DNA of 64,000 nucleotides from Tubiluchus corallicola (GCA_030141605.1 JAQGDQ010000611.1:1-64000); one strand, 5' to 3'. Numbered from the stretch's first letter, positions 1 through 40,286 are shown. The notes: generated by a model not told the origin, from the sequence alone. A program made the numbers and translations.

Positions 1-1798
1 TCAACAACATCGTCAGCAACAACAGCAATAACGGCGTCATCAACGAGCATGGGTCCCTCACCCAACATCGTTTTTGTCAACCGGAAGAAAGCATCCGACC
101 AGGATAAAGATAAATGAATATTTTTTAAATAGTAAAGGTACACCCCATCGGGATAAAGATAAATGAATATTTTAAAAAGTAAATACACTTCAGTCTCTGG
201 CAATTTTAGTCTAATAGTAAAGCGCCTCAGTTTTTTTTCTCTTTGTACATCTAGTCTAGATAAAAGTAAAATTTTAAATACCCTATTGTCAAAAAAGAAA
301 TCTTTCAATAAAAATGTGGCTAATGCAACTTGTGAGTTTTTGGGATTATATATATATATCCTCACCTAAAAAATACTGACTCGTTGAAATTCGTGCAGAC
401 TAGAAGGCTGCGGGCATTCAATTTTATCTAGACGGCAGCTGTCCTACTGTCTGCTTGCTGTACATTCCAACGGGCTTTTTTTAAAAACAGGTACACGCAC
501 TTAAATAGCCGCGGGTGTCACGTCTCGCAAGTCAATTAACGGATTAAGCCCTCATTAGCTAGGTAGTCGAGTCAATTACCGGATTAAGCAATAGACACGT
601 GCCTGCCTTGGCGTCTGATCAGATGAGTGCATTCGTTGCGGGTTTAAACATGCGAGTTAGTACAGATAGAAAGATTTTTACAAAATAGACACGTGCCTGC
701 CTTGGCGTCTGATCAGATGAGTGCATTCGTTGCGGGTTTAAACATGCAAGTTAGTACAGATAGAAAGATTTTTACAAAATGAAAAGATAATTTTAACTAA
801 CATTAGTTATTATTGTTCTGTCGGATAAAAAAGTGGATGACGACCAAAGATCAGACTCTGCTTTAGGTAATACCGCATCATCATCGTCGTCATCATCATC
901 ATCGTTGGATACAGTTGACAAAAAAATAAAGAAACCCAGAAATTAATCATGCTCGGCGACGCGTGAGTAGACTGTATGTTACACGCGGTAACGTTCGTGC
1001 TAATGGTCGGCCCGTGCTAACAATCGTGCTCGGCGGTGTGTGCGCGTGTGAGTAGACTGTATGTTGCACGATGCGACCGCATTGGATGGAGCGAAGAAGG
1101 CTTTTTCGGTGACGGCATCCATCCATCTCGGATAAAGGTAGGATAAAATTTTTAAAAATTGTATTGCAACTTAGACGCGCATAAAAGAACATTCTAACCC
1201 GGATGAGGGTGGGGTAAAATTTTTAAAAATTGCAAGGCAATTTAGACTCGCATAAAAGAACATCCTAACCATTTAGCGACGACGACGAGACTGCTGCACG
1301 TGGGTAGAGAAATCTTTTAGCCCATTATCTAGCTAGCTAGGCGGCGAGAGTCGATTACCGGATTAGCCACAATTAGGGTGGAGCAAGCAAAGTGCGCAGC
1401 GAGCGCGTGTCGAACGGACGACTGCATTTACCGCAGAGGGGGGGGGGGGGTGTTCTCGTCGGGCGCACCCCCCCCCAAAAACGTGCGCGAGTCCCAACCG
1501 TCACTCCTAATCCTTAAATCGAGCACTTAACTAGCGCAACAATAGACCCACTTCACTTTTTTAGGGGGGTGATTTTTGTTCCCACCCCCGGCAGTCGAGG
1601 GGGGCGTGGCCCGTCGACCAACCGTCACTCCTAATCCTTAAATTGGTCACTTAACTAGCACGACAATAGAGCCACTTCACTTTTTTAGGGGTGTTTCCGG
1701 ATTTTCGCACTTTTTTAGGGGTGTTTTTCCCCACCCCCCCCCCGGGGAAATCCCCACCCCCCGGGGAAATCGGCCAGAGGCAAAACATCTATACTACT
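1..1798. mobile_element. Terminal region (probable TIR) of a Polinton/Maverick-like element inserted in an intron of the EGF gene; the rest lies left of the window
   Basis: Ends ...CATCTATACTACT at 1798 (reverse complement AGTAGTATAGATG, a Polinton-type AGTAGT terminus). Sequence from 1799 (GACGCCTTTGTAATAAT) matches the paralogous uninterrupted intron at 3371, while sequence to the left does not. G/C-run-rich end with internal direct repeats (94 bp at 591/685, about 70 bp at 1145/1216 and at 1496/1619). No element protein is visible in the window. Confidence 0.6.
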
Positions 1799-1917
1799 GA
1801 CGCCTTTGTAATAATAATAATGATAGTGATGGTGACGATGACGACGACGACGACGACAAAAACAACAACAATAATAATAATCAGAAAAATAATTAAGATT
1901 CACTTGTCGAACCATAC

Positions 1918-2025
1918 CTTCTTCACATGTGCTGCCAAAGAATCCTGGTGCACACATGCAAGAGAATGAATTTAGAGCAGGAGAACACATCCCGCCATTT
2001 AAGCAAGGATTTGGTGAACATGTGT
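1918..2025 (-). CDS. EGF exon ([35 protein letters not shown])
   Basis: 108 bp, AG/GT flanks, phase 1-1, 6-Cys EGF pattern. Confidence 0.85.
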
Positions 2026-5000
2026 CTATAAACGAAAAATACAGGGTAATAACAATCAGACTGTAACAAAGATTTGCTCCAACGCATCATTAAAAATACA
2101 AAAAACTGTTTGGGTCAACCTGTGATTTCAATGTGGTTTACTTTATGTAAGAAAGGAACATAAAACATAAGAGCTGTACTTCACACATCATACTTTACAA
2201 TCAAGTAGACAATGAAGATTGAAAATAAGTAGTAAAGTGTGTTGGGGGAATCATGCAATGAGGATATTTAACGCAAAATATAATTTAGATTGATGAAACT
2301 GGCATAACAATGACTAAAAATATACAGCCGCATTTCACTTACTTGTTTCACATGTGGAACCAGTAAATGCTTCAGCACAAATGCACGTAAATGAATCTGC
2401 ACCATTACAACAGGTGCCATCATTTAAGCAAGGTGAGGTCGCACAAAAGTCAACTAAGAGAAGATAACAAAATCACTTGCACATTTCAAAGATCTGTCAA
2501 GTTGGTACTATAAAATGGGCCTCGTACTGCAAAATATAACGTTCATGGTTTTTATTTAAAAAAGGAAATTTTCACCACATGTTTAGGACAAATTTCAAAA
2601 CACTGACATCTTAAACATGGCAGTAAAGATGTGTCAATACATTATACCAATTTGACAGCCAGCATAAGAAATATGGAATTACTTAAAAATTTCGAATAAG
2701 CAAACTTATACTAGCATCAAACTTTGCAAAATGAAATTTTTAATAAAATTAGGGCTTAGGATTACTTTGTACAACTTTTTTCCAAAGGCAAGTGGTTTGC
2801 TTTTTGTAAGAAAGGAACATAAAACATAAGAGCTATATTTCACACATCATACTTTACAATCAAGTAGACAATGAAGAATGAAAATAAACAGTAAAGTGTG
2901 TTGGGGAATCATGTAATGAGGATATTTACCACAAAATATAATTTAGATTGATAAAACTGGCATAACAATAACTAAAAATATACAGCCACATTTCACTTAC
3001 TTGTTTCACATGTGGAACCAGTAAATCCATCAGCACAGATGCATATAAATGAACCTTGGTGATTAATGCAGCTGCCATCATTTAAGCAAGGTGAGTTCAC
3101 ACAATTGTCAACTAAAAAAATGTTACAATTGAGTTATACGTAACAGAAAATTATGTGTATTTAGTAAAGTAGCATTTATTATTTAATTGGTACGCTATCA
3201 TTTCAATCCCTAACATGCAGATATAAACCTTTGTATCAGTGATTTGTTTCCTACACTGCCTCTGCAGCACAGCTCTTAACACCTTATAACACAACTCTTT
3301 TCATTATTTCCAAATTAATGACTCATTATTCTAATATGACTTAAAGTTGTAGTTTGGCATGTCAGTAATGGACGCCTTTGTAATAATAATAATGATAATA
3401 GTGGTGGTGATGATGACGACGACGACGACGACAAAGACAACAACAATAATAATAATCAGAAAAATTATTAAGATTCATTTGTCGAACCATACCTTCTTCA
3501 CATGTGCTGCCAAAGAATCCTGATGCACACATGCAAGAGAATGAATTTAGAGCAGGAGAACACATCCCGCTATTCAAGCAAGGATTTGGTGAACATGTGT
3601 CTATAAACGAAAAATATAGGGTAATAACAATCAGACTGTAACAAAGATTTGCTCCAAAGCATCATTAAAAATACAAAAAACTGTTTGGCTCAACCTGTAA
3701 CTTCAATGTGGTTTACTTTTTGTAAGAAAGGAACATAAAACATAACAGCTGTACTTCACACATCATACTTTACAATCAAGTAGACAATGAAGAATGAAAA
3801 TGTACGGTAAAGTGTGTTGGGGGAATCATGTAATAAGGATATTTACCACAATATATAATTTAGATTGACAAAATCACTTGTACAATTCAAAGATCTTTCA
3901 AGTTGGTACTATAAAATGGGCCTCGTACTGCAAAATATAACTTTCATGGTTTTCATTTAAAAAAGGAAATATTAACCACATGTTTGGGACAAATTTCCAA
4001 ACACTGACATCTTAAACATGGCAGTAAAGATGTGTCAATACGTTACATCAATTTGACAGTCAGCATAAGAAATATGGAATTACTTAAAAATTTCGAATAA
4101 GCAAACTTATACTAGCATCAAACTTTGCAAAATGAAATTTTTAATAAAATTAGGGCCAAGGATTACTTTGTACAACTTTTTTCCAAAGGCAAGTGGTTTG
4201 CTTTTTGTAAGAAAGGAACATAAAACATAAGAGCTATATTTCACACATCATACTTTACAATCAAGTAAGCAATGAAGAATGAAAATAAACAGTAAAGTGT
4301 GTTAGAGGAATCATGTAATGAGGATATTTACCACAAAATATAATTTAGATTGATAAAACTGGCATAACAATAACTAAAAATATACAGCCACATTTCACTT
4401 ACTTGTTTCACATGTGGAACCAGTAAATCCTTCAGCACAAATGCACGTAAATGATTCTGCACCATTAATACAGATGCCATCATTTGAGCAAGGCGAGGTC
4501 ACACAAAAGTCAACTAAGAGAAAGTAACAAAATCACTTGTACATTTCAAAGATCTGTCAAGTTGGTACTATAAAAAGGGCCTCGCATTGCAAAATATAAC
4601 TAATATGGTTATCATTTAAAAAAGGAAATATTAACCACATGTCTGAGACAAATTTCAAAACACTGACATCTTAAACATGGCAGAGTAAAGATGTGTCAAT
4701 ACGTTACATCAATTTGACAGTCAGCATAAGAAATATGGAATTACTTAAAAATTTCGAATAAGCAAACTTATACTAGCATCAAACTTTGCAAAATGAAATT
4801 TTTAATAAAATTAGGGCCAAGGATTACTTTGTACAACTTTTTTCCAAAAGTCAAGTGGTTTACTTTTTGTAAGAAAGGAACATGAAACATAAGAACTGTA
4901 TTTCACACATCATACTTTACAATCAAGCAGACAATGAAGAATGAAAATGAACGGTAAAGTGTGTTGGGGGAATCATGTAATGAGGATGTTTACCACAAAA

Positions 5001-16805: not shown

Positions 16806-16889
16806 CTGATTACAATAAATTTACAATAATACTATCACACAACACAAATAATGCACCCTCAACATGCAATTCTGCCCAACGTTCATAAC

Positions 16890-17030
16890 TTATTTGATTG
16901 GTCTAGCGAGATCGTATATAGATGGCGCGCACAACATCATTCCCAGTGTGCCAGAGATGCAAGCTAGGCTGAAAAACCACAGGAAGAGCCTGTCTAGAAC
17001 CATGGCAACATACTGCCAGTCTTCTTTTAC
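16890..17030 (-). CDS. nAChRalpha: nAChR alpha exon 6 ([46 protein letters not shown])
   Basis: TTGTTTTTAG acceptor, TM4, TAA at 16892-16890. Confidence 0.93.
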
Positions 17031-20000
17031 CTAAAAACAAAGAAAGAGACTTTCTTAGCGTTTTATACGGCTAGATCCAATTGCTAAACATACATTTTTA
17101 AAAAGTATAAAACTATGCTTTACTTCCTTACCCCTACTTGAACTTAAGCATTTGTAAGGAAACTACTTTGAAACAAAGTAAGTAATATGTCCACATATTT
17201 ACAAAGTTGACACGTGCATGTTTATTCGTTTGGAAATGCAGTTATACAATCTAAGGAAATAATGAAAAACATACATTTAAAGCACAAGAAAACCCTCCAC
17301 TTACATAAAGCTTAAAAAACGTCTCGAAATTTTATACCACTTACGCACTACCTTTTCGTATGCATGGCTTGTATCGGCCGTAACACTGTGTAAAACGTGT
17401 AAATTTAAACTCCCGCGATGACCGTTAGGCGCAGCCATTTTAATGGTAGGTCTTATAAAACAAATTTTGATAACATTAAGTAAAGTTTGAAAAAATAATC
17501 AGAGCATCTGTAGATGTTGCTAATTAAGTAAAATTTTAAATTGCTGTATCTTGTCAATAAGATTAAAAATACGTTTTTGGCTAGAGAGTGGCGCACCCTA
17601 GAAAGTGAGTCAGCGACATTTTACCAACTGGCACAAGCATTTTAAATGAGTAGTCTAGTTGTACAAGTCTTTCCAGTAGGTAAGTGAAATGCTAAGTAAT
17701 ATAGGTTTGCACAGAAAGTTTTTTGGGTCATAATTTAACATTGCCTTTTCTGCCCCTATTTTAGTGACGTCATGTAATGGCGCCGTCGGAACAGTATTGC
17801 GGGAGATTTAAAATGAAAACAAACGAAAATTCCTTTCAACACGAATACGATATGTGAATAAAATTGCTGTAAAGTAGTATAATTTTTTAAGGCGATTTTT
17901 CTGAAACCTACTTCAAGTGCCCCTTTTCTTGTCCTTTAATGTGCATATAAGACAGCATGCTTACATCACTGGTGGAAAGAACCAGAAGTAAGAACTTGTT
18001 AGGTGTTTGTGCCACTGTAAGAATGTCCAAATAATTGAAGAAAAAGAGCAAAGAAACGAGGCATCTAGGCAGTTTGAAAGTAAAAACTTACTAGGTAGTT
18101 ACCACTGTAAAGACGTCCAAGTAATTGAAAAGAAGATAAACAAACGAGGAGTTTAAGCAGTTTAGAAGGAAAAATTTGTGCAAAACAAGGATAGAAGTGA
18201 CGGACAGAAGTGACAGATAGAAATGACGGATAAAAGAACGTTCAAAAGGATAAGACGAGTCCCTTTTGAAGTTTCTGGGTTAAAATCCACTTACGTTAGT
18301 CATAAGTCATTTATTTCACATTACACATTTACAATAGTTTCATGTACAATATCTAGTGAAAGGGCCTATAATGAACATAGTACAAATAAGAAATACTACA
18401 CAGGAAAAGCCTCAAACACTGTTCACCTATATACGAAAATAAATGTGTTGTGGGCAATAATGTGCTAGAGCTTCTGTAACCATCTTCCTATACTTACTCA
18501 GTCTTAATTGAGTACCTGGTCATACGGATGTAACGATATCGATACGTATGGATAACTAACCTGTCAATGATTTTCGATTATCGTATCGATATGAAAAATA
18601 CGTTTTTATCACATCGATATTATTCTAGGAATATCGCTAGCTTATCAAATTTGGTACGTATTGCTATTTGCAAAGTCATTTTACTTTGCTTTTTCATTGA
18701 TGTAATGGAAATACATAAAATATTTAAAAAAAGATTAATTTATAAGGTTATTGGAATCATTTTCTTGTAATTTCTTCCAGCATTAATGGCTGTCTCTAGC
18801 CGGTTTAGTCACAAAGGAATGTTCAGGGTAGTATTTTTAGAGGCGATTTCCTTGTTATATACATAAATAATGATAAATTATTGATAGAATAGCAATAAAT
18901 GAGCTTTTGTAAGGAATGTTTGTGAGCAAGCATGCTAGGGTCGCGCGCATTGTTTCTGGCTGACCAATCAATGAATGACATCCGTCTTTCGAAATTTGAC
19001 CAAACGGCCTCTATAGAAAAAACGTTCTAACTGCGCTTAGTGTGACTCTTGGAAGGAGATATATAGCTCTTTAGAAAGAGGAAGAACAGGACTATACGAT
19101 GGTGTACACTATATTTCAGGACACGTCCACCAAGAGGAGTGACTACGAGTTGCTTAGATATTCCTTTTTTGGCAATGTTCGCTTGGAAAACTGCCGACGC
19201 AAAGCCATTGTTCTGACGTCATCCATTATACTCTGCTTATAACCTTATAACTTTAACTCAGTAAAAGCTGCTACTGGCTCTGAGTTATAAATGAGGACAA
19301 TGTAGGATGTTTGCGTATTATTGATTATAAGTGTATTTATACGCAAAATTTTTTGCGGGGCCTTTGCTAATATATACATTAATTTGGAAGTGGCTTGCAA
19401 AAATACAGAGCTGTCATATGCTGATACACTTTACACAACTACTGCAGGTTCAGCATCTTGAATTAGCTTATCGTATCATATTGCAAAGCAGATAATCAAT
19501 ATCGTATCACTGGAAAAATGTATCACATTCTATCGTTAACGTATTGCCCAATGTGTATCATTAAACATTTCTACCTAGTCATGTACTTTTGGAAGAAAGG
19601 CAGCTGAGCAACAAACTAGCCACCTCTCTTCCATCTATCGACCTAGGTCCATCAGAATGTTGGTTCTTTTTCTTCACTCTATAAAGCAGGAAGTTCTTCT
19701 GACTCAGAATGGCCAAGAGTGAATATGCTTACCGATCGTAATTCATCCTCTTTCTGAATATGAGAAGCTATGTACTGAACATCCTCCATTGCTTTCTGTA
19801 TCTCCGGATGTCGAGGTTTGGCTTTTTGTAGGTTAAGCTGCCTACTGAGGAGAGCGCTGTCGACGGACATCAGTCGACTCAGTCTCTTACTGCTCTCCTT
19901 CACAACGATGTATGTCTTGTCCTTCTCAAACTCCGGACGGCGCATCATCAGAAACCGCGGCAACATCTCCAGGAAAATCTGCTTTAATACAGGTTGCATC

Positions 20001-23000
20001 TCGTGTGTTTCTGGACTCCGATAATGCATGTTTAATACATACACTGTCACGCACACAGAACCAGTCACCAAAAACAGCGTAAACAGCAAGTACTTGCCTA
20101 TCAGCGGCACCACCAACGATGTCGGCGGGATAGTTTCTGACAAGAGCAAAAAGAAGACGGTCAAACTGACGAGAATGGAGATACTCAGTGAGATTTTTTC
20201 GCCACTGACCACTGGTAAGTAAAAAGTACACACAGTTAAGAATGACAATGCAACACACGGTATGATAAAGTTGACCGTGTAAAATAAAGTTTTTCTCCGT
20301 AAAACCACATTGTAAGTGATGTCAACATACTGTTCCGGGCAGCAGGAGTAACGATATGCGGTCCTGTTTCCCGGAACTGCCATCAGATCCCACTCCACGC
20401 TAGTAACGAACTCGCTGAGATCTATGGCCGAGTCCTTGTAATCTCCGGTGTAGTCTTTGTGCTGGAGATCCACTAAACTCTTGTCGTACGTCCATGATCC
20501 GAATTTCATGGAGCAGTTTTGCTCGTCGAATGGAAAAAATCTCACATTGATGTCGCAGGAACTCTTGTAGATGGCTGGAGGTTCCCAGACCACGTGACCA
20601 TTTTTATAGACTTTTGCTTTTGTCATCAAAGTAACCTGATAGTTTCCATCAGCGCTGCAAAGAAAAGAACTGCAACTTTAATCAAGGTTAGCCATGGATT
20701 ACGTAATTTTTAGCCAAACAAATTACAAAGTACCTAGTCATCAAAAAGGAAATATTTAAATGAAAGGAACTTTATGATAATCAAAGCTTAACTAGACTGC
20801 AGCCTAGGGTGCCAAATTGTGAGGAGGACCAAATTTTAGGAGACCAATGTTAAAAAATCCTAATTCTCCTCACAAAATGCGTATCCTTTCAGATACATAT
20901 AAAGTACATATTTTATAGCATACCAAAAGCAGTTAGAGAATCTGCTACTATATAAGTTCTACATAACAAATAAGTACAATTAGGACATAAAAGATCTTAC
21001 AAGTATGTGCACAGTCTGCCTAGATATAAGGTCAATGGAAATACATGTAATTAACAACAGCCACATAGATGTTAAGTAATACACCACAAGTAATTCGAAA
21101 GCAAACATCTGTAAAAGCGATAACAGGGACTGAACTATCTGATTCAGCTTAGGGTGTCGTGATGGTAAGATACATTTTAGTCATGATTTGACTTACTTAT
21201 TATATAACACAATGTCTGGTATCCAAATCCTCTGAGAGGGTACATACAGAACATCAACATCCCCATACTCTGCCGGATCCCACGTTAGTTTGTAATCTCT
21301 CCATTCCTAGAAAAACAAATTATACTATTAAACAGATTTAGACAAATACTGGAGCAAATGAATTTTTATTTCAACTATTACTCAGCTGCATTTAAAATAC
21401 AAATGTCTGGTTTCAATCAAAAGAGCTTAGGAATAATACCATTGAGAATAATGCTAGGGAGCATGGTTTCATCAGCAACAGAGCTTCAACAGTAATGGTT
21501 TAAGAAACATGGCTTCAAAAATATTTGCCCAGGAAATGGCTTATACAATATTGGCTTCAGGAATAATGACCCAAGAAGCGAGGCTTCAACACTAATGACC
21601 CAGGAAGCATGGCTTCAACAATGATGACCCAATAAGCGAGGCTTCAACACTAATGACCCAGGAAGCATGGCTTCAACAATGATGACCCAAGAAGCAAAAG
21701 TTCATCAAGAATGACCCAAGAAGCATGACTTCAACAACGATGACCCAGGAAGCATGGCTTTAACAATAACAACCCAGGGAGCATGGTTTCACTAACAGTA
21801 GCCCAATAGGCTTCAACAATAATGGCCCAGAACGTAGCTTCAAAAAATAAACAGGAAACATGGCTTCACAACAAAAATGAACTAGGAAACATGGCTTCAA
21901 CAAAAATGAACTAGGAAACATGGCTTCAACAAAAATGAACTAGGAAACATGGCTTCAACAAAAATGAACTAGGAAACATGGCTTCAACAAAAATGAACTA
22001 GGAAACATGGCTTCAACAAAAATGAACTAGGAAACATGGCTTCAACAAAAATGAACTAGGAAACATGGCTTCAACAAAAATGAACTAGGAAACATGGCTT
22101 GATCAAAAATGAACTAGGAAGCATGGCTTCAACAAAAATGAACTAGGAAACATGGCTTCAACAAAAATGAACTAGGAAACATGGCTTCAACAAAAATGAA
22201 CTAGGAAACATGGCTTCAACAAAAATGAACTAGGAAACATGGCTTCAACAAAAATGAACTAGGAAACATGGCTTGATCAAAAATGAACTAGGAAGCATGG
22301 CTTCAACAAAAATGAACTAGGAAACATGGCTTCAACAAAAATGAACTAGGAAACATGGCTTCAACAAAAATGAACTAGGAAACATGGCTTCAACAAAAAT
22401 GAACTAGGGAACATGGTTTTAACAAAAATGAACTGGGAAGCATGGCTTCTTGACATACATTTTTAGAAAGCATGACACTTGAAAACCATTTATGATACGC
22501 ATGTGCATGTCACCACTCGCCTATATTACACGACTGGTTATTTACATATTACTTCAACCAAGTGTCTTTCCATTACTACAGAACAATTTAAATAAACATC
22601 ATTATATTCAGAAAAGAACTACAAACTTCTAATAAAAAATTCTGTACCTGCTGTACCCAAACGTTCGTTATCATCACTTGATTCTTTTCATCCTGTAAAA
22701 ACCAATAATAATATCAAAATCCAGCCTTGCCCCATTCTTAGAACTTTTCTAAACTGCCAGCAAATTACCAAAATCATAACATGGTCGTCATCACAAGTTT
22801 CTGTCGTTACTTTGGCTAGCAGAAGTCAGTTAAAATGATGGTTAGTTAGTTAAAATTTTTCTGTCCAGTTTTCGATTCTTTTTTCTTAACAAATCTTATG
22901 CACTAAGCACTCCTACGAAGAGCACTTATTTATCTCTTTTGCAATTTCATAATTGCTGTAAAAATCATCCATTTTTAAATTTTATTATCGTTTTGTACTG

Positions 23001-26000
23001 TGACTGTATCCTTAATTCTTGAATCGAATTTAAATTTATGTAGGTTCTTTGGAGGCAACTGATTATACACTGCTGCAAATACAGTTTGGGGGTGAACGAA
23101 GCATTTAAAATTACTGACGAAAATTTTGTGATACCCTAAGCATTAGTAATGGCTACCAGTGACCCAGACCACAGCACCCTGTCTGAAAATCGCTGACACA
23201 AGGCCTAACACAAAGTTTGCTTAAAGTTTGGCTATCAAACAGCAATTTTAATATGGAATATCAAACAAACATTGACCTATATTATTTTAAAATTGCTATT
23301 GTGTAGTTACATAATGTGCGACAGTAATAGCGAAGCAGTTTGTCCATTTATCCAATAATACGATACTTACATAATAAACAACGTCCGTTACATTTGTGTT
23401 AGAGCATAAGAATCTGCATAGTGTGGAGTTACTCACCACATTTATGAGTTGAGTAAGTTGGAGTCCTAGCTTCATTAATACAGTATACTCACCACATTTA
23501 AGAGTTTAGTAAGTTTGAGTCCTAAGCTTCACTAATACAGTATACTCACCGCATTTATGAGTTGAATAAGTTGGAGTCCTAGCTTCACTAACACGATATA
23601 CTTACAACATCTAAATGAGTTGAGTAAGTTTGAGACCTATCTTCATTAACATAACATACTCAGCACATTTACAAGTTGAGTAAGTTTGAGTCCTAGCTTC
23701 ACTAATACAGTATACTCAGCACATATATGATTTGAATAAGTTTGAGTCCTAGCTTCACTAATACAGTATACTCACTGCATATATGAGTTGAGTAAGTTTG
23801 AGTCCTAGCTTTACTAACACAATATACTCACCACATTTACGAGTTGAGTAAGTTTGAGTCCTAGCTTTAACTAACACAATATACTCACAACATTTATGAG
23901 TTGAGTAAGTTTGAGTCCTAGCTTCACTAACACAGTTTCATTGTGGTGTCTAACTGGTCGAGTCTGTCTGTTATAACTACTCAGCAAATCATCGTAAAGT
24001 CGCTTAGCATCTGGGTTAGCTTCACTACCTACAAAAAATCGATAGGATAAGCAAAATTTGGTCAACAGTTTATTCTAAAACTATTATAAATATAAACATA
24101 AAAATATACTTATAAATATGGAGCACGGAAGATGAATTTCACTTTAGTATGCAATGCAATGTTTATTGTCAAGATCCTTATAAAGAATTGCGTTCTTAAA
24201 TCAAGTATCAGATATTTTTCCAGAATTCTCATCCATGTGTGATATTGATAAGTTTATATTTTTAAACAAAAGTGGAGATGTGGAAGTTAAGAAATTCTTA
24301 ATTAACTATGTGCCTAAAATTTCAACAATACGTGATTCTGAATTAAGAGATACGAATAAATTTTGCTAAGAATTAATGTATTTAATCAGCACTGTGATAT
24401 ATATGTAGATGTGTTTGTTATAATTATGGTACTTCTTAATCAACTATGCTTAGAAAGAGTCCGGTATTTGTAGAGACGTGCGCCTGTATGCCTTGTTTAT
24501 TTAAGTATATGATTTGTTATTTGTACTTGTGTTTATGTTTGTAAAATAAAGCGCTTTTTATTGTTAAATAAAATTTATAATTATTTAATCTAGCTATTCG
24601 ATAAAGCTTCTCTGTCGAGCAAGTGAATCTCCTTCCCCTGCGCGCTTTTGTCACTGAATTTTATAAGCAAGAAATTTGATCAATAAAGCTCCCGAGATCA
24701 CTGGGCACATTTGCAAATCTGTTAAACGGTTCTATCGATTTTAACAGGTTCGCAATTAAAGAATTTTCCACTTTCATCGACCAAAGGCTTTTACCAGATG
24801 CTAAGCAAAAAATCAGGAAAAAGCAGAACAATACCTAGTTTTAGATTAAACATCGTGTATATGCTAAAGCGACTTCTGCTATTTGGTTAGCAAAAAGTTT
24901 GTGAGAGGCAACCGTTTCTCAAACCGAGAAAAGGGGAATCTTATTCAATTACCCAGTGACACTCTGATCAAGTTATGACGTAAGAGAATCGTAGTCCACG
25001 TCAGGATTAAAATCACATGCAACTACAACATTTATACATTGCAAAAATTTACAAAACAAATATCATAGTAATAATTATGCGAGAAATTATATTGTATCTA
25101 AAAATTGTTGTAACGATCTGACGTCTGGGGGTAGATTGTTTGATCGAAGGTAGTCGCTGGGGTAACAATTTGACCGGCCTGACCGAGCTAAAGAAAGGGG
25201 CGACCAATCATCTACCCGTTAGCTCCAGACAGTGGCGAGCTTATAGGCAGTCTACGGGGGGGGGGGGGGCTGTCTATTGAGCAGAGTGGTTCGGGTGTGG
25301 GATGTGCAGTTTACTTTGCTTGGAGTAATCTGTTGTACTCACTGTGATAATGCAAACGACGATGTGTAGGCAACTAATGCACAAACAATCAATTGCATAA
25401 ATATTGTAGAAATAATTATTAAGCGAACAAACAAAAAATGTATGTAAAAAAACACTATCACTAGTCAAACACTAATTTAACTACATTTGGATGTGCTACA
25501 TATTACAGTATCTACTTACAGTAGACTTACACTATCAAGTCGATAAACAAACAAATAAATTGGCAAATAATGCACAACAGCTAAACCTAACTAAAAGGAG
25601 TACCTATTTGCCTAACTACATGCCACCCCAAATGATGTAGTCCTCGCTAGCGCTATGACGATCAACCGGTATTATCTCACTTAGAAAATACACCATGGAG
25701 GTTGCGTAGTACTACTAAGTTTAACGTAGGGCGCCTCTATGATGAGGTTGCAACTCAGCGTTAATTAGTATCACTAGCCCAATTTCTTGAACAGCAGGGA
25801 GGTTAAGCCCAGCTTCCACGCAACTGCTAACTGCTAGCAAATACTAAATTGTGCAACTTACAGTCTCTGGGTTGTTATCGTACTGGGGGTGCCGCGTCAC
25901 CTCAAACATGGATCCGCCTCTCAACGGTTTGTCGGTACACCCATGGCACTTCCCAACGATACGAACACAGCAATGAGACAAAGTCTTAATTGTCACCAAC

Positions 26001-27991: not shown

Positions 27992-29277
27992 GCGCATTCA
28001 GACTAGAGCGAGTTTTATCGTCGAGTTAACTCGCCAAGTTACTCGTCAAGTAACTCGCAAGCGTGTAGAGACTAAAGAACAAAACTTGCTGCAAGTTACC
28101 ACTCTCCAACAGTAAGCGTGAGCTGACACTCACTTCTCTACTTGAAGTTGGGTACGGCAGGGAGGAAACATGTCCCCTCTTCTGTTTAACTTCTACTTTA
28201 GAGAACTTAGTGAAAATCTAGCCTCTAGTAATCTTGGATGTCAAATTGCAGATATTTATTACAGTCATATGACATACGCTGACGATATTTGCCTATTAAG
28301 TACTACGACAACTGCTCTGGTGAAATTATATGATATATATGTTGATTATACAGCAAAATTTGATATTTTAATTAATGTTGACAAAACTAAGCTTCTGACT
28401 ATAACACCTTCCAATATGAGCAACTTTGAGTTCCCAACAGTTAAGTTAGCTGAATCTGTTATTGGGCCTTGTGATAATGAAAAATATCTTGGTCACATCA
28501 TTTCTAGGGACAACAGAGACGACATACGACAAGTAGGCATTTATTACTCTCGAACAAATAAGCTATGCCGTAAATTTTACTATTGCACCAATGCTGTAAA
28601 CACGTCTATTCAATACTTATTGTAATAGCTTCTACTGTAGTCACCTGGTGGCATTTTCATAATTATAATCTGAACAAACTTAAGGTTGTTCATAATAAAT
28701 CAATGCGAAAATTTTTCAATTATGAGTTCGATCACAGTGCCAGGGGTATTTCTGTGACGCATAAATTAGTGTACTTTGATGTTATTTACAGGAAAAGCAT
28801 TTACAGTCTGAATACTAGAATTTCAAACAGTGAAAACTTGTTATGTAGAACGATATTCGGTAGTGATATTTTATTTACTTCTAGTGTAAGAAAGATTTGG
28901 AGAAGGATATTGTATGCTTAATTTTTTACATTGTTGATATTCATTGATATAATGATTGAAGCCAATGCGAAATGTTATTATTATTTTTTTGTAATGTTGT
29001 TTACTTTGTGTGCTTGTGTGTTTATTTACTTGTAGTTTCGTTGTATATATTGTTAATGTTGTACTAATATGATATGAACGAAAGTTTGAAATAAAGAAGT
29101 CAATCAAATCAAATCAAATCTATTCATAGTAACTCGTTGAGGCGTTCACATTAAAGAGCAACTCGCAGGAAATCAACTCCTAACAACTGTCGGAGAGTTT
29201 GCGATGTTTTGAGGATAGTAACTTGCAAAGCAGTTCAAACTTGCGAGAGAGAAAGCTCGCTATTATGAACTCGCCGG
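27992..29277. mobile_element. PIF/Harbinger-like MITE split by a LINE insertion
   Basis: Ends related to GGCGCGTTCAGACTAGCGAG; family copies at about 34226-34480 and 47030-47178; the flanks of the LINE are nearly contiguous in the 34.3-kb copy. Confidence 0.55.
28141..29120 (+). mobile_element. 5'-truncated LINE with reverse transcriptase remnant
   Basis: GVRQGGNMSPLLFNFY...YADDICLL...KYLG RT motifs (ORF 28170..28625), frameshifted C-terminus (28583..28921), AATAAA then (TCAAA)n tail. Confidence 0.9.
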
Positions 29278-34440: not shown

Positions 34441-35551
34441 GTAAATCAACTGCCAGTAACTGTCGGAACGTTTGCAATAACTTGCCGACAGTCAGTCACA
34501 TAGCAGTTCACACATGCGCGTTTGCTGTCAGAGAGAAAACTCGCGAGTTAAACAAGAAATCAACAAAAACAGCTCGTGTTTGTGGCATAAAACGCACACG
34601 CTGCAAGTACCACGTCCACACGATTCGCACAATCCGCATATTCCGTATGCACGTGAAAACACCTTAAGAACTTCAAAGCATTTACAAAACAGTTCAATAA
34701 CGCAAAACAAGACTATTTTTGAAAAATCAATCATCTGATTTCTTTTGCTTCATATTCGTACTTTCTGATTTGCAACTCCAAAATACATCAGACTGATTCA
34801 TCTACAATTCTTTCATAAGTTATTTTTTGAAGTTTTGCTCGCGTAAAAATCAATACCAACGAGTGATGACTAAGTTCATACCAAGAACGAAAAGATAAAC
34901 AAGAAAGAAATAAGAATAAGAAAGTAGCAGCATAAGAAAGATAACGGCAAGAAGGAGAATAAAAACAGATAAATTGATGCATGAAGAGCTGGGGAGGAAA
35001 AGAGATAGGAAAAGAGAGAATTAAAAAGAAAACGAAAGGGAGGGAGTGGGAGCACAGAGAAAGAAAGAAAAGGGGAGAGACAAAGAGGAAATGCATTAGT
35101 AGAAACCACATAAGGAGTAAAGACAGGTGTATAATATAAAGAAAGTTATACATTGGAATTTTCAATTAATTTACACATTCATCGTCTTATGTACATTTTT
35201 ATATTTTTGAAAAATAGTTAATATTCTTTACTAGGGATTCAACACTGAAGAATTCAATTAGCGACTTTACAAAGAAACTAATCTCTTCTGTTAAGAATAA
35301 AAATCATCAAAGAATATGGCTTCTTTTACCTGCGCGAGCATTTTGGCATCATGCCAGAAAATGTGAAACGCGAAAATTTATTTTTGTAATTGCGTGAATC
35401 GACGTCATTTTCGATATTTTTGTAAACGAAACACATCGAGTTTTAATTAAGTTGTTAATCAACTGCTATAATAGTCTTCGTCCTGAAAAAGTGATTTCGA
35501 ATCAGAGGCACGCAGGTTCTTTGCTCGGAAATTGGAATCAGTGGCTGAAAA

Positions 35552-35698
35552 TTAGTCTGTGCTGCGTCCGTATCGCATCCCTAAGAAGTCGTAGTCGTTG
35601 TAGAGCTCGCCTCGCCCGAATCTTGAATACCCATAATCCAGACTTCCAAACCGCTTGTCGGGATGGCTGGAGTGAAGGTCAGTCATGTCATCTGTAAG
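35552..35698 (-). CDS. Peptide-encoding terminal exon of the SK/CCK-type precursor
   Basis: 147 bp; KR-FGSLDYGYSRF-GR-GELYNDYDFLGMRY-GR-STD*. Confidence 0.88.
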   Translation of the reverse strand, partial: LTDDMTDLHSSHPDKRFGSLDYGYSRFGRGELYNDYDFLGMRYGRSTD

Positions 35699-38456
35699 CT
35701 GAAAAAAATTGAAAAAAGCTGTAATGATTTTTGTAGACTATAAGCCAGAAAGTATGGTATAATTATAGCAAAATTAAACTGATGTGCAGCTAAATAAAAG
35801 AGAACGCTGTAGCCAGCAGCTGTAGCAAAAACACATTATAGCAGAAAGCACAGTAACAGCAGCTGTAGTGTAGAACACTGTAACAACAGCTGTAGCAGAG
35901 AACACTGTAGGAAGAGCTGTAGCTGAAAGCGCTGTAACAGCAGCTGTAGCAGAGAACATTGTAAAATAGCTGTAGCAGAGAACACTGTAGGAAGAGCTGT
36001 AGCTGAAAGCGCTGTAACAGCAGCTGTAGCAGAGAACATTGTAAAACAGCTGTAGCAGAGAACACTGTAGGAAGAGCTGTAGCTGAAAGCGCTGTAACAG
36101 CAGCTGTAGCTGAGAACATTGCAACAGCAGCTGTAGTATAGAACACTGTAGCAACAGCTGTAGCAGAGAACACTGTCCCAACAGCTGTAGCAGAGAACAC
36201 TGTAGCAGCAGCTGTAGCAGAGAACACTGTAGCAGCAGCTGTAGCAGAGAACACTGTAACAGCAGCTCTAGCAGGGAATGTTGTAGCAACGGCAGTAGCA
36301 TAGAACACTGTCCCAACAGCTGTAGCAGAGAACACTGTCGGGAGAGCTGTAGCTGAAACCACTGTAGCAGAGAACACTGTAGGGAGAGCTGTCGCTGAAA
36401 CCACTGCAGCAGAGAACACTGTAGCAACAGCTGTAGTATAGAACACTATGTGTTGGTGGTGGTGGCGTTGGCAGTGGAGAGAGTGCAACGGTGGTGGTGG
36501 CAGTGGTGGCAGTAGTAATGATCGTCGTGGTAATGGTGGCAGCGGCAATATGGCACCGGCGGTGGTGCAACGATGATGGTTAAAATATGCTAATCCTACT
36601 GGTGTTGTCGTTGCAGTTGCTATGAAAATGCAGTTTAGTATTGTTTTTATTCCTACTATAGGCCTTAGGCCTATCATAATCTTTTCAGGACTTAGGGCCT
36701 CTTGAAGTGTTAATCCGGCCCCGAATATCGCTTTGTGTGCAATTTGCCCTTTCCTGCTGCTATTGTGCAATGACTGCACCTCTCTTAAAGAACACACGCC
36801 CTAGTCTGTTTCAAAACTTGGCTAGGATCTGCAACACAGTAAACTGACAACTGCAGTTGGACTGTTACATAATTACTGTCAAGCTCTACAGAAAAGCACG
36901 GCCATTGTCAATCTTGATTACCTTTGCCGTTCTGTAATTTCAGATTAAACGAATTTATTTACAATGTTGGTCCAACGAGTGGAAGTTTGGTTTTAGCTCA
37001 AGTACTCTGTACTTTTCACATGAAATTTCTCCAATCAGGGATTACATTATCTTGGCTGAATTCAATTGTCTTGTAGTGGTGGTCGTGCGTTTCATCTGGC
37101 CGTATGACAAAGGAAACTTCCAAACAAGAATCAAATAAAGATTACCGGACTGCATCAGTAGGTGACACCGTGAAAGTTCATGTGAAGTTTTAGTTAAAAA
37201 ACATGATATTTGTATTTTAAAGGACGACTTTTTATTAGAAGCTTCAAAAACTTTGAAAACAGTCCAAAATCTTCCACTACATAACAGCAGTTATCTACAG
37301 TGAGTGAAGCATTTAAACATCCATCAGTGTTTAACACACACGCGCCGATGATCACTGATATAATGTAGTCGAAAAATTTGAACTGTTTCATAATTTTCAA
37401 AGTTTATAAAGCTTTTAATAATACAGATAGTCCTTGACTTGTGACCTAATTAAGCAACTAGCAACTTTTCGACCATAATTAATTAATTAATTATCCAAAA
37501 CTAATAATAACTAATCTTTCCTTCTTTTTATTTTAAATCTAAATCTGTTTGTCCCTAGACGACGCCATACTTGATGCGCCTAGACACGTCACATCTCACG
37601 CGTAGGGACGCACAACTTGAACATACGGGTTCGGGTTGCACACAAGTCACCATACGACCAATCCGCCGAAGCCAAAATTATTACTTCCTACTAAACGAAC
37701 AGAGCTAGTGTAGAATTCCTGCTCGCAAGCCTACTAAACTAATAAACCTAGTGTAGAATTCCTGCTCACAAGCCTACTAAACTAACAGAGATAGCGTAGT
37801 ATTCCTGCTCACAAGCCTACTAAACTAACAGAGCTAGTGTAGTATTCCTATTCACAAGCCTACTAAACTAACAAACCTAGAGTAATATTCCTGCTCACAA
37901 GCCTACTAAACTAACAGACCTAGTGTAGTATTCCTGTTCACAAGCCTACTAAACTAACAGAGCTAGTGTAGAATTCCTGCTCACAAGCCTACTTAACTAA
38001 CAGAGCTAGTGTAGAATTCCTGCTCACAATCCTACTAAACTAACAGAGCTAGTGTAGAATTCCTGCTCACAAGCCTACTAAACTAACAGAGCTAGTGTAG
38101 AATTCCTGCTCACAAGCCTACTAAACTAACAGAGATATCGTAGTATTCCTGCTCACAAGCCTATTATATAATGTATTTTATATAGTGCATCCAGAGATAG
38201 TACTACACAATATACCACATATAGTCTGGTCGTAAGTCGACGATTGTCTACAAAGTTGTATTTTAGAATACAAGAATTTTTCTTTTGTAAAGTAACAACA
38301 AATTTGTGCATGCTTGGCGGTACTTACCTGAGTTTTTGGTTCGGCAACTCTGTGTTTGGCTAAAACTTGTTGTAGTCTCTTTATGCTTAAACTGTGTGAT
38401 GCTGGTATGGCTGTCAGAACTATCACTGTCAATAATGTTGTCAACGTGGTCTTCAT
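35552..38456 (-). CDS. Sulfakinin/cholecystokinin-type neuropeptide precursor, 91 aa
   Basis: Join 38456-38328 (CAG|GTAAGT, phase 0) + 35698-35552 (TTTTTTTCAG|, TAA): MKTTLTTLLTVIVLTAIPASHSLSIKRLQQVLAKHRVAEPKTQLTDDMTDLHSSHPDKRFGSLDYGYSRFGRGELYNDYDFLGMRYGRSTD*. Signal peptide, acidic spacer, KR site, two DY-containing peptides each ending R(F/Y)-G-R. Confidence 0.85.
35800..36450. repeat. About 27-bp minisatellite (CAGCTGTAGCAGAGAACACTGTAGCAA) in the neuropeptide intron
   Basis: Direct reading, with larger composite repeats. Confidence 0.95.
37688..38160. repeat. 43-bp minisatellite, 11 copies, in the neuropeptide intron
   Basis: Unit CTACTAAACTAACAGAGCTAGTGTAGAATTCCTGCTCACAAGC; 473 bp = 11 x 43. 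Confidence 0.95.
38328..38456 (-). CDS. Signal-peptide exon of the SK/CCK-type precursor
   Basis: Acceptor TTTTTTTAG|GATG, hydrophobic N-terminus, GTAAGT donor. Confidence 0.85.
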
Positions 38457-40286
38457 CCTAAAAAAATACGAAATTTAAGACATGAAATCTATTCATTGGG
38501 GTACCTCAGTAATATCAGAAATTGCAAAGCCAAAACGGTCATATATAGCAGATTAGATTTTAAATTAGTTTATCTCATTCCATATCCATATGCGAGACTG
38601 CTATTTAATTCCACACAATTCATTATAATTGTCGTGAGAGGGGGTGATTGTAGTCCGTTTATGTTTAAACTGTACGTTGCATGTCTAATAAAACTAATTG
38701 AGTAGTATGTTGAATTCAGTGTTGTTGTCAAAAGTTGTGCATATATAATATTCACAAGTACACATGTTTGGCAGTGAAGATTAATACTAATGTTTCTCGT
38801 ATATACTATACAGAATACACGTTCTGAGCGGTGAAGAGTACCAACAATATAAATTGAAATCGTTAAGTTGTCAGTTGTCAACTTAGATCATTAGATGGTA
38901 CATTGTAAACAATTAACAATTAGCAATTTAAATTGTAGGTACAGCTGAGGGTGTGTTTACTGTATAGTGTATACACGAAACGTAATTATAAATTTTCACC
39001 ATCGAGAACGTGTAATTAGTATAGTATACATTCAAAACAATCAGCAACTACAATATACTCAGTGTGCAATTAATTATACTTGGCTGTTTTGACAATGTAA
39101 TTTCTGAAATTTAATGTACAAGAAGACACTCTTCATAAATTACGCCTATAGTCTCGTCTTGAAATTTTATATCACTTACAAGCAATCTCATTGTGCGCAG
39201 AGCTTGCTTTGGCAGTACACTGTATAAAACTTGAAAATTTAAACTCCCATAATGATCGTTAAGCGCAGCCATTTTAACGGTAAGTCGTTTGGAAACCGTT
39301 TAAATAATATAGCCTGAAGTTTGAAGAAATAGTCACAGCGTTCGTAGCGCTAACTAACTATGCGTTTAACTTTATACTGTCAATAACGTCAATAATGTGT
39401 TGTTGTTGTTGTTTTTTCGGTGAGTCAGTGGTGCTCACTGGGATGGCGATGGAGTGCCGTTTTACCATGCGCGAACATTTGAAAACCAGATGATTATTTA
39501 GACTCAATTGCATTTTAATTTACTGTCCAAAATATTTTTTCATTATTCATAATTTTTCATTATTTTTAAATAATTAGCTTAGAAAGTTAATTAATGGCAA
39601 CCGAACACAGCTACTGCTTACGTCAGAAACTAACATCAGTTTCTGAAATAACACGCATCTTCCCTTGCGCGTCAAGCACGTTTGCGTAAGTGTTACTGCT
39701 AAAACACGTGATGTCACGAAAATTGGCTCTACATCATATGACGTCAGAAACTAACACTGCAGTTCATGATCGTGATTATCACGGCGTTGCCAATCTTAGT
39801 AGAGCCGCGCGTAGCTTTGAAAGTTAAACGAAATTTGAGTGACCGAGGTAATTATTATTTAACGTAAGCATTGATTCAAAAAAAGCTATTGTAGTTTTTA
39901 ATATTTTAGAGCATTCTTTGTTCTGAACTAATGTTTACACAATCGTCCAGTTTTCTTTTAGGAATTTTCTTTTCTAATTATATAATTATATCTTTCACTC
40001 TCAAATAGGTAAGCGTAACGCAAAGTAACATAACTTTGTGTGGGAAGTTTTTTGGTACATATCTCAAAATAGCCTTTTCTTCCCCTTTAAGGTATTTCAC
40101 TAACAATAGATTAAGATATGACACTGCAGCTTAAAATGAACGCCTTGAGCTGGTGGGCAGGGGGAGGGCGGTGGAGGGAGGGCTTGCTGATCTGAGCGAT
40201 AGTTCCGCATTGCACAGCAATTCAAAACCTTTTCAAATATTACAGGTAAACTAATTAACAAGTCCACAACACAAGAATGACGCTAC

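What the first reader, a model, noticed from the sequence alone, without database searches (positions are those of the whole stretch)
35552..38456. Hidden sulfakinin/CCK-type precursor with two atypical peptides of different Tyr spacing
Seen: a signal-peptide exon and a 147-bp terminal exon join in phase 0 to give a 91-aa precursor with KR-FGSLDYGYSRF-GR-GELYNDYDFLGMRY-GR; the peptide exon is absent from the ORF track. Established: arthropod sulfakinins end DY(SO3)GHMRFamide, molluscan/annelid SK/CCK peptides end about DYGxGGGRFamide, and G followed by a basic residue signals amidation. Inference: peptide 1 (DYGYSRFa) has the short arthropod spacing without the HM core. Peptide 2 (DYDFLGMRYa) has the longer lophotrochozoan-like spacing, lacks the Gly after DY and ends RYamide. 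One precursor carrying both spacings could be an undescribed ligand pair and informative for SK/CCK evolution. Each peptide has a second Tyr that could also be sulfated.
Basis: partly seen in the sequence, partly recalled or inferred. Interest (0 to 1): 0.85.

Follow-up and report, generated by a model that had tools for sequence, protein, structure and literature searches.

The report
Penis-worm sulfakinin with two ancestral spacings
This is a real, spliced gene for a small hormone precursor, likely from a priapulid (penis worm) and likely its cholecystokinin/sulfakinin satiety hormone, and it is predicted to release one peptide built like the insect form and a second built like the mollusc form, a pairing that would help explain how this hormone family changed early in animal evolution.

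Summary
Two coding exons (38456-38328 and 35698-35552, minus strand, GT-AG, phase 0) give a 91-aa secreted precursor, and a contig of a probable RNA run joins them at exactly that junction. A neighbouring nAChR groups with Priapulus caudatus, so the animal is likely another priapulid. An unnamed relative keeps both peptides (30 of 34 residues). Best reading (about 0.8): the lineage's sulfakinin/CCK precursor. Peptide 1 matches the Rhodnius SK-2 core at 6 of 7 residues. Peptide 2 aligns without gaps to oyster/limpet CCK2 and nemertean SK. The single 'atypical' traits (RYamide end, no Gly after DY, second Tyr) all have precedents. The part I could not find in print is a priapulid SK/CCK ligand, and an ecdysozoan peptide with the long spiralian Tyr spacing (0 of 16 in a published table) paired with a short one. 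Receptor, sulfation and neural expression are untested. Peptide 2 also fits the RYamide motif, but the precursor lacks RYamide architecture. The scan had no look-alike on other DNA.

The parts
38328..38456 (-). First coding exon: signal peptide and start of the spacer (43 codons)
   Evidence: covered with 0 differences by the spliced X2 contig
38391..38456 (-). Predicted signal peptide, codons 1-22; cleavage most likely after Ser22 (alternatives after 16 or 24)
   Evidence: hydropathy peak 2.59 over 11 residues; (-3,-1) rule scan; SignalP not available
38457..38470 (-). T-rich tract plus AG one base before the ATG: likely splice acceptor of an unlocated 5' non-coding exon
   Evidence: sequence; inferred, no joint seen up to 45000
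35699..38327 (-). Phase-0 GT-AG intron, 2629 bp, holding a 27-bp and a 43-bp tandem array
35552..35698 (-). Last coding exon: acidic spacer, both peptides, 3-residue tail, stop
   Evidence: relative P0123 at 73% identity, E 1.3e-13
35651..35656 (-). KR dibasic site before peptide 1 (precursor 58-59)
   Evidence: kept in P0123
35618..35650 (-). Peptide 1, 11 aa, FGSLDYGYSRF, predicted amide; Tyr at -6 and -4; arthropod-type spacing
   Evidence: identical in P0123
35612..35617 (-). Gly (amide donor) plus monobasic Arg in an RxxR context
35570..35611 (-). Peptide 2, 14 aa, GELYNDYDFLGMRY, predicted amide; Tyr at -11, -8, -1; spiralian-type spacing
   Evidence: last 9 residues and the -11 Tyr identical in P0123
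35552..35569 (-). Gly plus monobasic Arg (RxxR), 3-residue tail and stop codon
35377..35551 (-). Start of the 3' UTR with poly(A)-signal-like hexamers beginning at 35447 and 35382; true end not determined
   Evidence: X2 contigs continue here with about 7% differences

Best explanation
The gene is spliced and encodes a 91-residue precursor that is likely the sulfakinin/cholecystokinin (SK/CCK) prohormone of what is likely a priapulid worm, predicted to release two amidated, tyrosine-sulfated peptides that would act on a CCK-type receptor. Shown: exons, junction, reading frame, peptide sequences, their conservation in a relative. Inferred: the signal peptide is cut after about Ser22; convertases cut at KR58-59, R72 and R88; Gly71 and Gly87 give the amides; tyrosylprotein sulfotransferase modifies Y65 and Y79 (each after Asp) and possibly Y76. 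Inferred from the family: both peptides bind C-terminus first to a Gq-coupled CCK/SK receptor and damp feeding or alter gut muscle and enzyme release. Peptide 1 has the five-residue Tyr-to-amide spacing of arthropods and nematodes; peptide 2 has the seven-residue spacing of spiralians. The simplest history is that seven was the early protostome state and the first copy had already shortened in ecdysozoans.
For: Architecture: signal peptide, long unconserved spacer, KR, two tandem Tyr-bearing amidated peptides at the C-terminal end, GR and a 3-residue tail, as in the Tribolium, Rhodnius, Apis, Drosophila and mollusc SK precursors seen in the PMC8557429 supplement. Published family feature, Tyr 5-7 residues from an amidated aromatic end (PMC8428848): met by both. 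Peptide 1 core equals Rhodnius SK-2 core at 6 of 7. Last 9 residues of peptide 2 align without gaps to oyster/limpet FDYNFGGGRWamide at 5 of 9, with D/N and Y/W similar; in the oyster this is also the second copy. Last 12 align to Tubulanus SK at 6 of 12 (7 of 12 for P0123) and carry the -11/-8 Tyr pair of Aplysia CCK2, both sites found sulfated by MS there. The MRY end is that of Daphnia SK1. Selection: 30 of 34 identical from KR to stop against 3 of 14 upstream, P0001 vs P0123. Lineage: nAChR at 16869-24038 has P. caudatus as best named hit (70%) and groups with it at SH-aLRT 98 (quick tree). P. caudatus has a CCK-type receptor on record and a separate luqin/RYamide precursor.
Against: No receptor assay, MS or tissue data. 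Pfam gave no gastrin- or sulfakinin-family match; the only hit was FARP, E 0.16, below cut-off. Peptide 2 has Leu at -5, where all 10 arthropod and 3 chordate peptides in the table have Gly, and it fits the arthropod RYamide motif FxxxRYamide. Y65 has only one acidic residue within five positions. The genome is not held, so a more canonical SK gene elsewhere is not excluded. The match rests on short peptides compared by eye. Lineage rests on one neighbouring gene; the origin of P0123 is not given. The spliced contig comes from one run whose RNA status is a guess and whose 3' UTR differs from the window by about 7% (31 of about 420 bases).
Confidence: 0.8

Rival explanations
1. A luqin/RYamide-related gene (a paralogue that lost the usual layout), or an SK/CCK gene whose second peptide works mainly through a luqin/RYamide receptor.
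For: Peptide 2 ends F-L-G-M-R-Y-amide and fits FxxxRYamide; it matches a Daphnia RYamide end at 4 of 6 (PMC7041311). P. caudatus has two candidate luqin-type receptors. Some flatworm luqin precursors have C-terminal peptides and no Cys pair.
Against: No Cys in the precursor and the first peptide starts at residue 60 of 91, whereas luqin/RYamide precursors typically have peptides next to the signal peptide and a C-terminal Cys pair. P. caudatus already has a typical luqin precursor with a QWRP start. DY motifs in both peptides are conserved in P0123. RY-ended SKs exist.
Confidence: 0.09
2. A lineage-specific FMRFamide-like (FLP) or other RFamide precursor with its own receptor; the likeness to SK is convergent.
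For: Only Pfam hit is FARP (E 0.16, both sequences). No relative outside one unnamed contig was found in three protein searches. FMRFamide-like peptides are reported for priapulids (cited in the NP-HMMer preprint; source paper not seen).
Against: The FARP score (13 bits) is under the 15.5 cut-off. Both copies carry Asp-Tyr at SK positions, and the second aligns gap-free to three spiralian SK types. Two C-terminal copies with a short tail is the SK layout.
Confidence: 0.09
3. Chance reading frame or dead gene.
For: Short ORF in repeat-rich DNA; no named database relative.
Against: Exact GT-AG junction in a contig, 0 of 200 shuffles with the tandem motif, strong conservation of the peptides in P0123.
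Confidence: 0.02

Closest known systems
Arthropod sulfakinins (Rhodnius SK-2, Daphnia SK1, Tribolium and Drosophila precursors; PMC12535377 suppl. 4, PMC8557429 suppl.)
   Same: Precursor layout with two C-terminal copies and a short tail after GR. Peptide 1 core 6 of 7 with Rhodnius SK-2. MRY end of peptide 2 as in Daphnia SK1.
   Different: Ser in place of Met/Leu at -3 in peptide 1. Peptide 2 has Tyr at -8, seen in 0 of 16 ecdysozoan peptides in the table. Monobasic GR, not GKR, between the copies.
Mollusc CCK/SK second copy FDYNFGGGRWamide (Crassostrea, Lottia) and Aplysia CCK2 (PMC4200219, PMC12535377)
   Same: Tyr at -8, no Gly after DY, Phe at -6, Gly at -4, Arg at -2, non-Phe aromatic end, second position in the precursor; -11/-8 Tyr pair as in Aplysia CCK2.
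   Different: Leu at -5 and Met at -3 instead of the Gly run; the first copy is short here but long in molluscs; no DVDH-type tail after the last copy.
Brachiopod, nemertean and phoronid sulfakinins (PMC8557429 suppl.)
   Same: RYamide ends (Lingula, Glottidia, Tubulanus), YxDY double Tyr (Tubulanus, Terebratalia), DYGY start (Novocrania, Terebratalia). Phoronid second copies have Tyr at both -8 and -6.
   Different: All first copies seen there have the long spacing and GG before the R/K.
Priapulus caudatus luqin/RYamide precursor (PMC5940834, PMC7041311)
   Same: Same lineage, RYamide end, and the same theme of mixed ecdysozoan and spiralian traits.
   Different: That precursor has N-terminal peptides, QWRP and a Cys pair; this one has none of these.
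Nematode NLP-12 (table)
   Same: Cycloneuralian CCK-type ligand with Tyr at -6.
   Different: RPLQF core; no long-spaced copy.

Membership tests
SK/CCK precursors | Signal peptide and usually two copies near the C-terminus, bounded by basic sites | tested here: met
   compared with precursors. Signal peptide by hydropathy and (-3,-1) rule only.
SK/CCK precursors | Tyr separated from the C-terminal amide by 5-7 residues (PMC8428848) | tested here: met
   Tyr at -6 in peptide 1 and -8 in peptide 2 (definition)
SK/CCK precursors | (D/E)Y(G) motif and aromatic amide end, mostly Phe (PMC6219549) | tested here: met
   DYG...F in peptide 1; DY without G and Tyr end in peptide 2, both with precedent
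SK/CCK precursors | Match to Pfam family models | tested here: inconclusive
   No gastrin- or sulfakinin-family hit; the gastrin model is chordate-based (taxa) and no positive control with a spiralian SK was run
SK/CCK precursors | Tyr sulfation and amidation in vivo | not testable with these tools
   Acidic context strong for Y79 and Y76, weak for Y65, poor for Y67
SK/CCK precursors | Activation of a CCK/SK-clade GPCR | not testable with these tools
   P. caudatus CCKR is listed in PMC8428848 source data; this species' receptor not seen
Arthropod sulfakinin in the narrow sense | Core YGH(M/L)RFamide | tested here: not met
   Neither peptide has His-Met; so SK/CCK-type, not a canonical arthropod sulfakinin
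Luqin/RYamide | C-terminal FxxxRYamide | tested here: met
   Peptide 2 only
Luqin/RYamide | Cys pair about 10 residues apart in the C-terminal region | tested here: not met
   0 Cys in 91 aa; feature
Luqin/RYamide | Peptides next to the signal peptide | tested here: not met
   First peptide at residue 60 of 91
FMRFamide-like peptides | Pfam FARP above cut-off | tested here: not met
   13 bits against 15.5

The most novel reading that the evidence does not exclude
One priapulid gene keeps both ancestral forms of the CCK hormone side by side and splits the work between two receptors: the short, insect-type peptide drives the CCK/SK receptor, while the long, mollusc-type peptide, which also carries the RYamide motif, drives a second receptor (a second CCK receptor or a luqin/RYamide receptor). 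It would be a living intermediate in the switch from spiralian to arthropod sulfakinins and a natural link between two feeding-control systems.
Probability: 0.15. Interest if true: 0.8.

Novelty: new variant of a known kind. Interest (0 to 1): 0.5.

Why it matters
A CCK-type receptor is on record for Priapulus but I found no ligand for it in the papers searched. Priapulids branch near the base of Ecdysozoa, so their peptides help polarise the two-residue difference between mollusc and arthropod SKs that PMC5996578 describes. A long-spaced copy in an ecdysozoan points to the long form as the early protostome state. The pair is also a ready test of how a CCK receptor reads the distance between sulfate and amide: two natural ligands from one precursor, two residues apart in register. 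It is a gap filled in a known family, not a new system.

Tried and rejected
No whole genome is held, so no search for a second SK gene, the receptor or the luqin gene. Protein searches: P0001 against 85-2000 aa proteins, 0 of 2 candidates scored (weak evidence that no annotated full-length relative exists); alignment A1 against 26-86 aa proteins, 1 of 6 candidates, P0123; representative library, 2 hits, of which P0124 was dropped as a repetitive 209-aa protein with a short local match and no amidation layout. Metagenome scan: 1 of 122 pattern matches passed, L001, a 20-residue match in an unrelated frame; dropped. PDB sequence search: none. ESM Atlas: low recognition, CCK cluster at 0.81 and 0.80 among many small-peptide families; uninformative. 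No run on record as RNA was listed as a holder; X2 came in by species label. I first took the oyster precursor as a precedent for mixed spacing, because PMC6219549 gives CCK2 with five residues. I dropped this: the EST precursor and the MS survey give the seven-residue form and the discrepancy is flagged in PMC12535377 suppl. 4. Nesting in the nAChR gene: its matched exons end at 24038, so not nested in the matched part. The nAChR tree is the quick fallback, 35 rows chosen from 120 listed hits plus the query. Earlier scan notes: none by sequence or in this genome; one sea-urchin CCK note by words did not bear on this.

Full report
Observation. The minus strand carries an ATG at 38456, a 129-bp exon ending in CAG|GTAAGT at 38328, a 2629-bp intron ending in a pyrimidine tract and CAG, and a 147-bp exon from 35698 to the stop at 35552. 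Both exon lengths are multiples of three, so the intron is phase 0, and the product is 91 aa without Cys. A contig of run X2 (RNA by the tool's guess, same species label as the DNA holder X1) covers exon 1 with no difference, skips exactly 2629 bases with canonical ends and continues through exon 2. That contig has 12 differences over 35520-35698; the one listed inside the exon is synonymous, and I infer, but did not see, that the rest lie at the contig's UTR end. The X2 3' UTR differs from the window at 31 of about 420 bases, so X2 is a divergent population or close relative. It is one run, tissue unknown. The tandem amidated Asp-Tyr motif occurs once in the window and in 0 of 200 shuffles.

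Lineage. An nAChR gene lies at about 16869-24038. Its best named hit is Priapulus caudatus at 70% identity; arthropod and spiralian hits mostly reach 50-66%. In a quick ML tree of 35 rows it groups with the P. caudatus protein and one unnamed protein at SH-aLRT 98, inside a larger set of seven rows at 99 that holds a second Priapulus paralogue. The animal is therefore likely a priapulid, or at least a scalidophoran, other than P. caudatus. This rests on one gene.

Conservation. A search of 1.84 billion representatives gave P0123, an unnamed 49-aa protein from a 2.4-kb Logan contig (E 1.3e-13). From KR to the stop it is identical at 30 of 34 positions, upstream at 3 of 14. Peptide 1 is unchanged; peptide 2 keeps its last nine residues and both upstream Tyr. 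No named full-length relative was found.

Anatomy and mechanism. Residues 1-22 look like a signal peptide (hydropathy; (-3,-1) scan). KR at 58-59 precedes peptide 1 (60-70); Gly71-Arg72 and Gly87-Arg88 are amide donors with monobasic sites in RxxR contexts; three residues follow. A further KR at 26-27 could trim the spacer. Y79 has three acidic and no basic residue within five positions, Y76 three acidic, Y65 one (the Asp just before it), Y67 one with two basic. So sulfation is likely at Y79, plausible at Y65 and Y76, doubtful at Y67. Processing, sulfation and receptor are inferred from the family: in Aplysia the peptides bind C-terminus first, need the C-proximal sulfate and cut food intake (PMC13485628 abstract and section 5; PMC12535377 passages); reduced feeding is the common effect across invertebrates (PMC8921109 section 6).

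Which family. PMC8428848 (section 6) defines SK/CCK peptides by a Tyr five to seven residues from the amide. Peptide 1 has five, peptide 2 seven. In the 32-peptide table of PMC12535377 (supplement 4, read whole), by my count 15 of 16 ecdysozoan peptides have Tyr at -6 and 0 of 16 at -8; of 11 lophotrochozoan peptides 8 have it at -8, 2 at -10 and 1 at -6. Peptide 1's core matches Rhodnius SK-2 at 6 of 7. Peptide 2's last nine match oyster and limpet FDYNFGGGRWamide at 5 of 9 without gaps, including the missing Gly after DY and the Phe at -6. Its YxDY pair and RY end match Tubulanus SK at 6 of 12 and the Tyr pair of Aplysia CCK2; its MRY end is that of Daphnia SK1. The precursor layout is that of the insect and mollusc SK precursors seen in the PMC8557429 supplement. 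P. caudatus has a CCK-type receptor in the PMC8428848 source data. These comparisons were made by eye on sequences shown by the calls.

Against. Pfam finds only FARP below cut-off. Peptide 2 has Leu at -5 where the 10 arthropod and 3 chordate peptides have Gly, though Ala or Ser occur there in brachiopod and nemertean SKs and Arg in nematodes. It also fits the arthropod FxxxRYamide motif (PMC7041311 section 7). But luqin/RYamide precursors typically put the peptides beside the signal peptide and carry a Cys pair, and P. caudatus has such a precursor already (PMC5940834 and PMC7041311 passages); this gene has neither trait. Without the genome I cannot rule out a second, more canonical SK gene.

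Is mixed spacing known? PMC6219549 (passages) gives oyster CCK2 with five residues beside CCK1 with seven, which would be a direct precedent. PMC4200219 (passages) and the EST precursor give a seven-residue CCK2, and the conflict is noted. I therefore treat the oyster as a doubtful precedent. The five-residue form barely activated the oyster receptors, a hint that spacing matters to a given receptor, though the Trp end confounds it. Phoronid second copies carry Tyr at both -8 and -6, and human CCK-8 and gastrin differ by one residue on separate genes, so tolerance of spacing is not unheard of.

Is it in print? A full-text search for the peptide strings listed 40 of 117 papers holding any term; none of the 40 held either core string, and papers with more terms rank first. 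Searches for Priapulus with sulfakinin (8 papers), with cholecystokinin since 2019 (5), and wider ones (listings only) showed no paper on a priapulid SK ligand. The strings are absent from the supplements of PMC8557429, PMC6188537, PMC6425005 and PMC12535377. The NP-HMMer preprint (10.1101/2024.07.20.604414; parts 1-2 of 3 read) reports 25 families in P. caudatus; its text never names sulfakinin and its figure legends list none, but Table 1 is an image and the supplement with the P. caudatus precursors could not be seen. That, Christie 2011 and Koziol 2018 on tardigrades (neither seen) could remove the novelty. PMC5996578 (passages) states the two-residue gap between mollusc and arthropod SKs. 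PMC13548532 (passages) does not mention priapulids. PMC8921109 notes introns only in mammalian and C. elegans precursors among those drawn; intron position was not compared here.

Verdict. A real gene, most likely the priapulid SK/CCK precursor (0.8), and a new variant of a known kind: an arthropod-type and a mollusc-type peptide on one precursor in an early-branching ecdysozoan. Interest 0.5.

Noticed in passing
window 16869-24038 (-): Nicotinic acetylcholine receptor subunit gene with at least five matched exons; one exon of about 930 bp spans most of the ligand-binding and membrane regions. It lacks the Cys-rich insertion near loop C seen in the P. caudatus protein P0004 and in P0003. Short repeated matches to residues 46-71 lie at 23437-23820.
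   Followed up: partly
window 35839-36447 and 37687-38163: 27-bp (22.5 copies) and 43-bp (11 copies) tandem arrays in the intron; the first explains the long Thr/Ala/Val-rich and Cys-rich ORFs at 35774-36800.
   Followed up: yes
window 34499-35427: X1 depth is 55-67 here against 7-12 in exon 2 and the intron, which suggests a multi-copy element overlapping the distal 3' UTR; X2 contigs also cover it.
   Followed up: no
window 1718-2086 (-): Single EGF-domain exon (Pfam EGF, E 3.2e-09) of a gene that was not traced.
   Followed up: no
window 28146-28921 (+): Fragment of a reverse transcriptase, likely a LINE-type retrotransposon remnant (Pfam RVT_1, E 1.3e-12).
   Followed up: no
literature: The oyster CCK2 tested on receptors in PMC6219549 is two residues shorter than the peptide in the EST precursor and MS survey, so its reported inactivity may not hold for the natural peptide.
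   Followed up: partly
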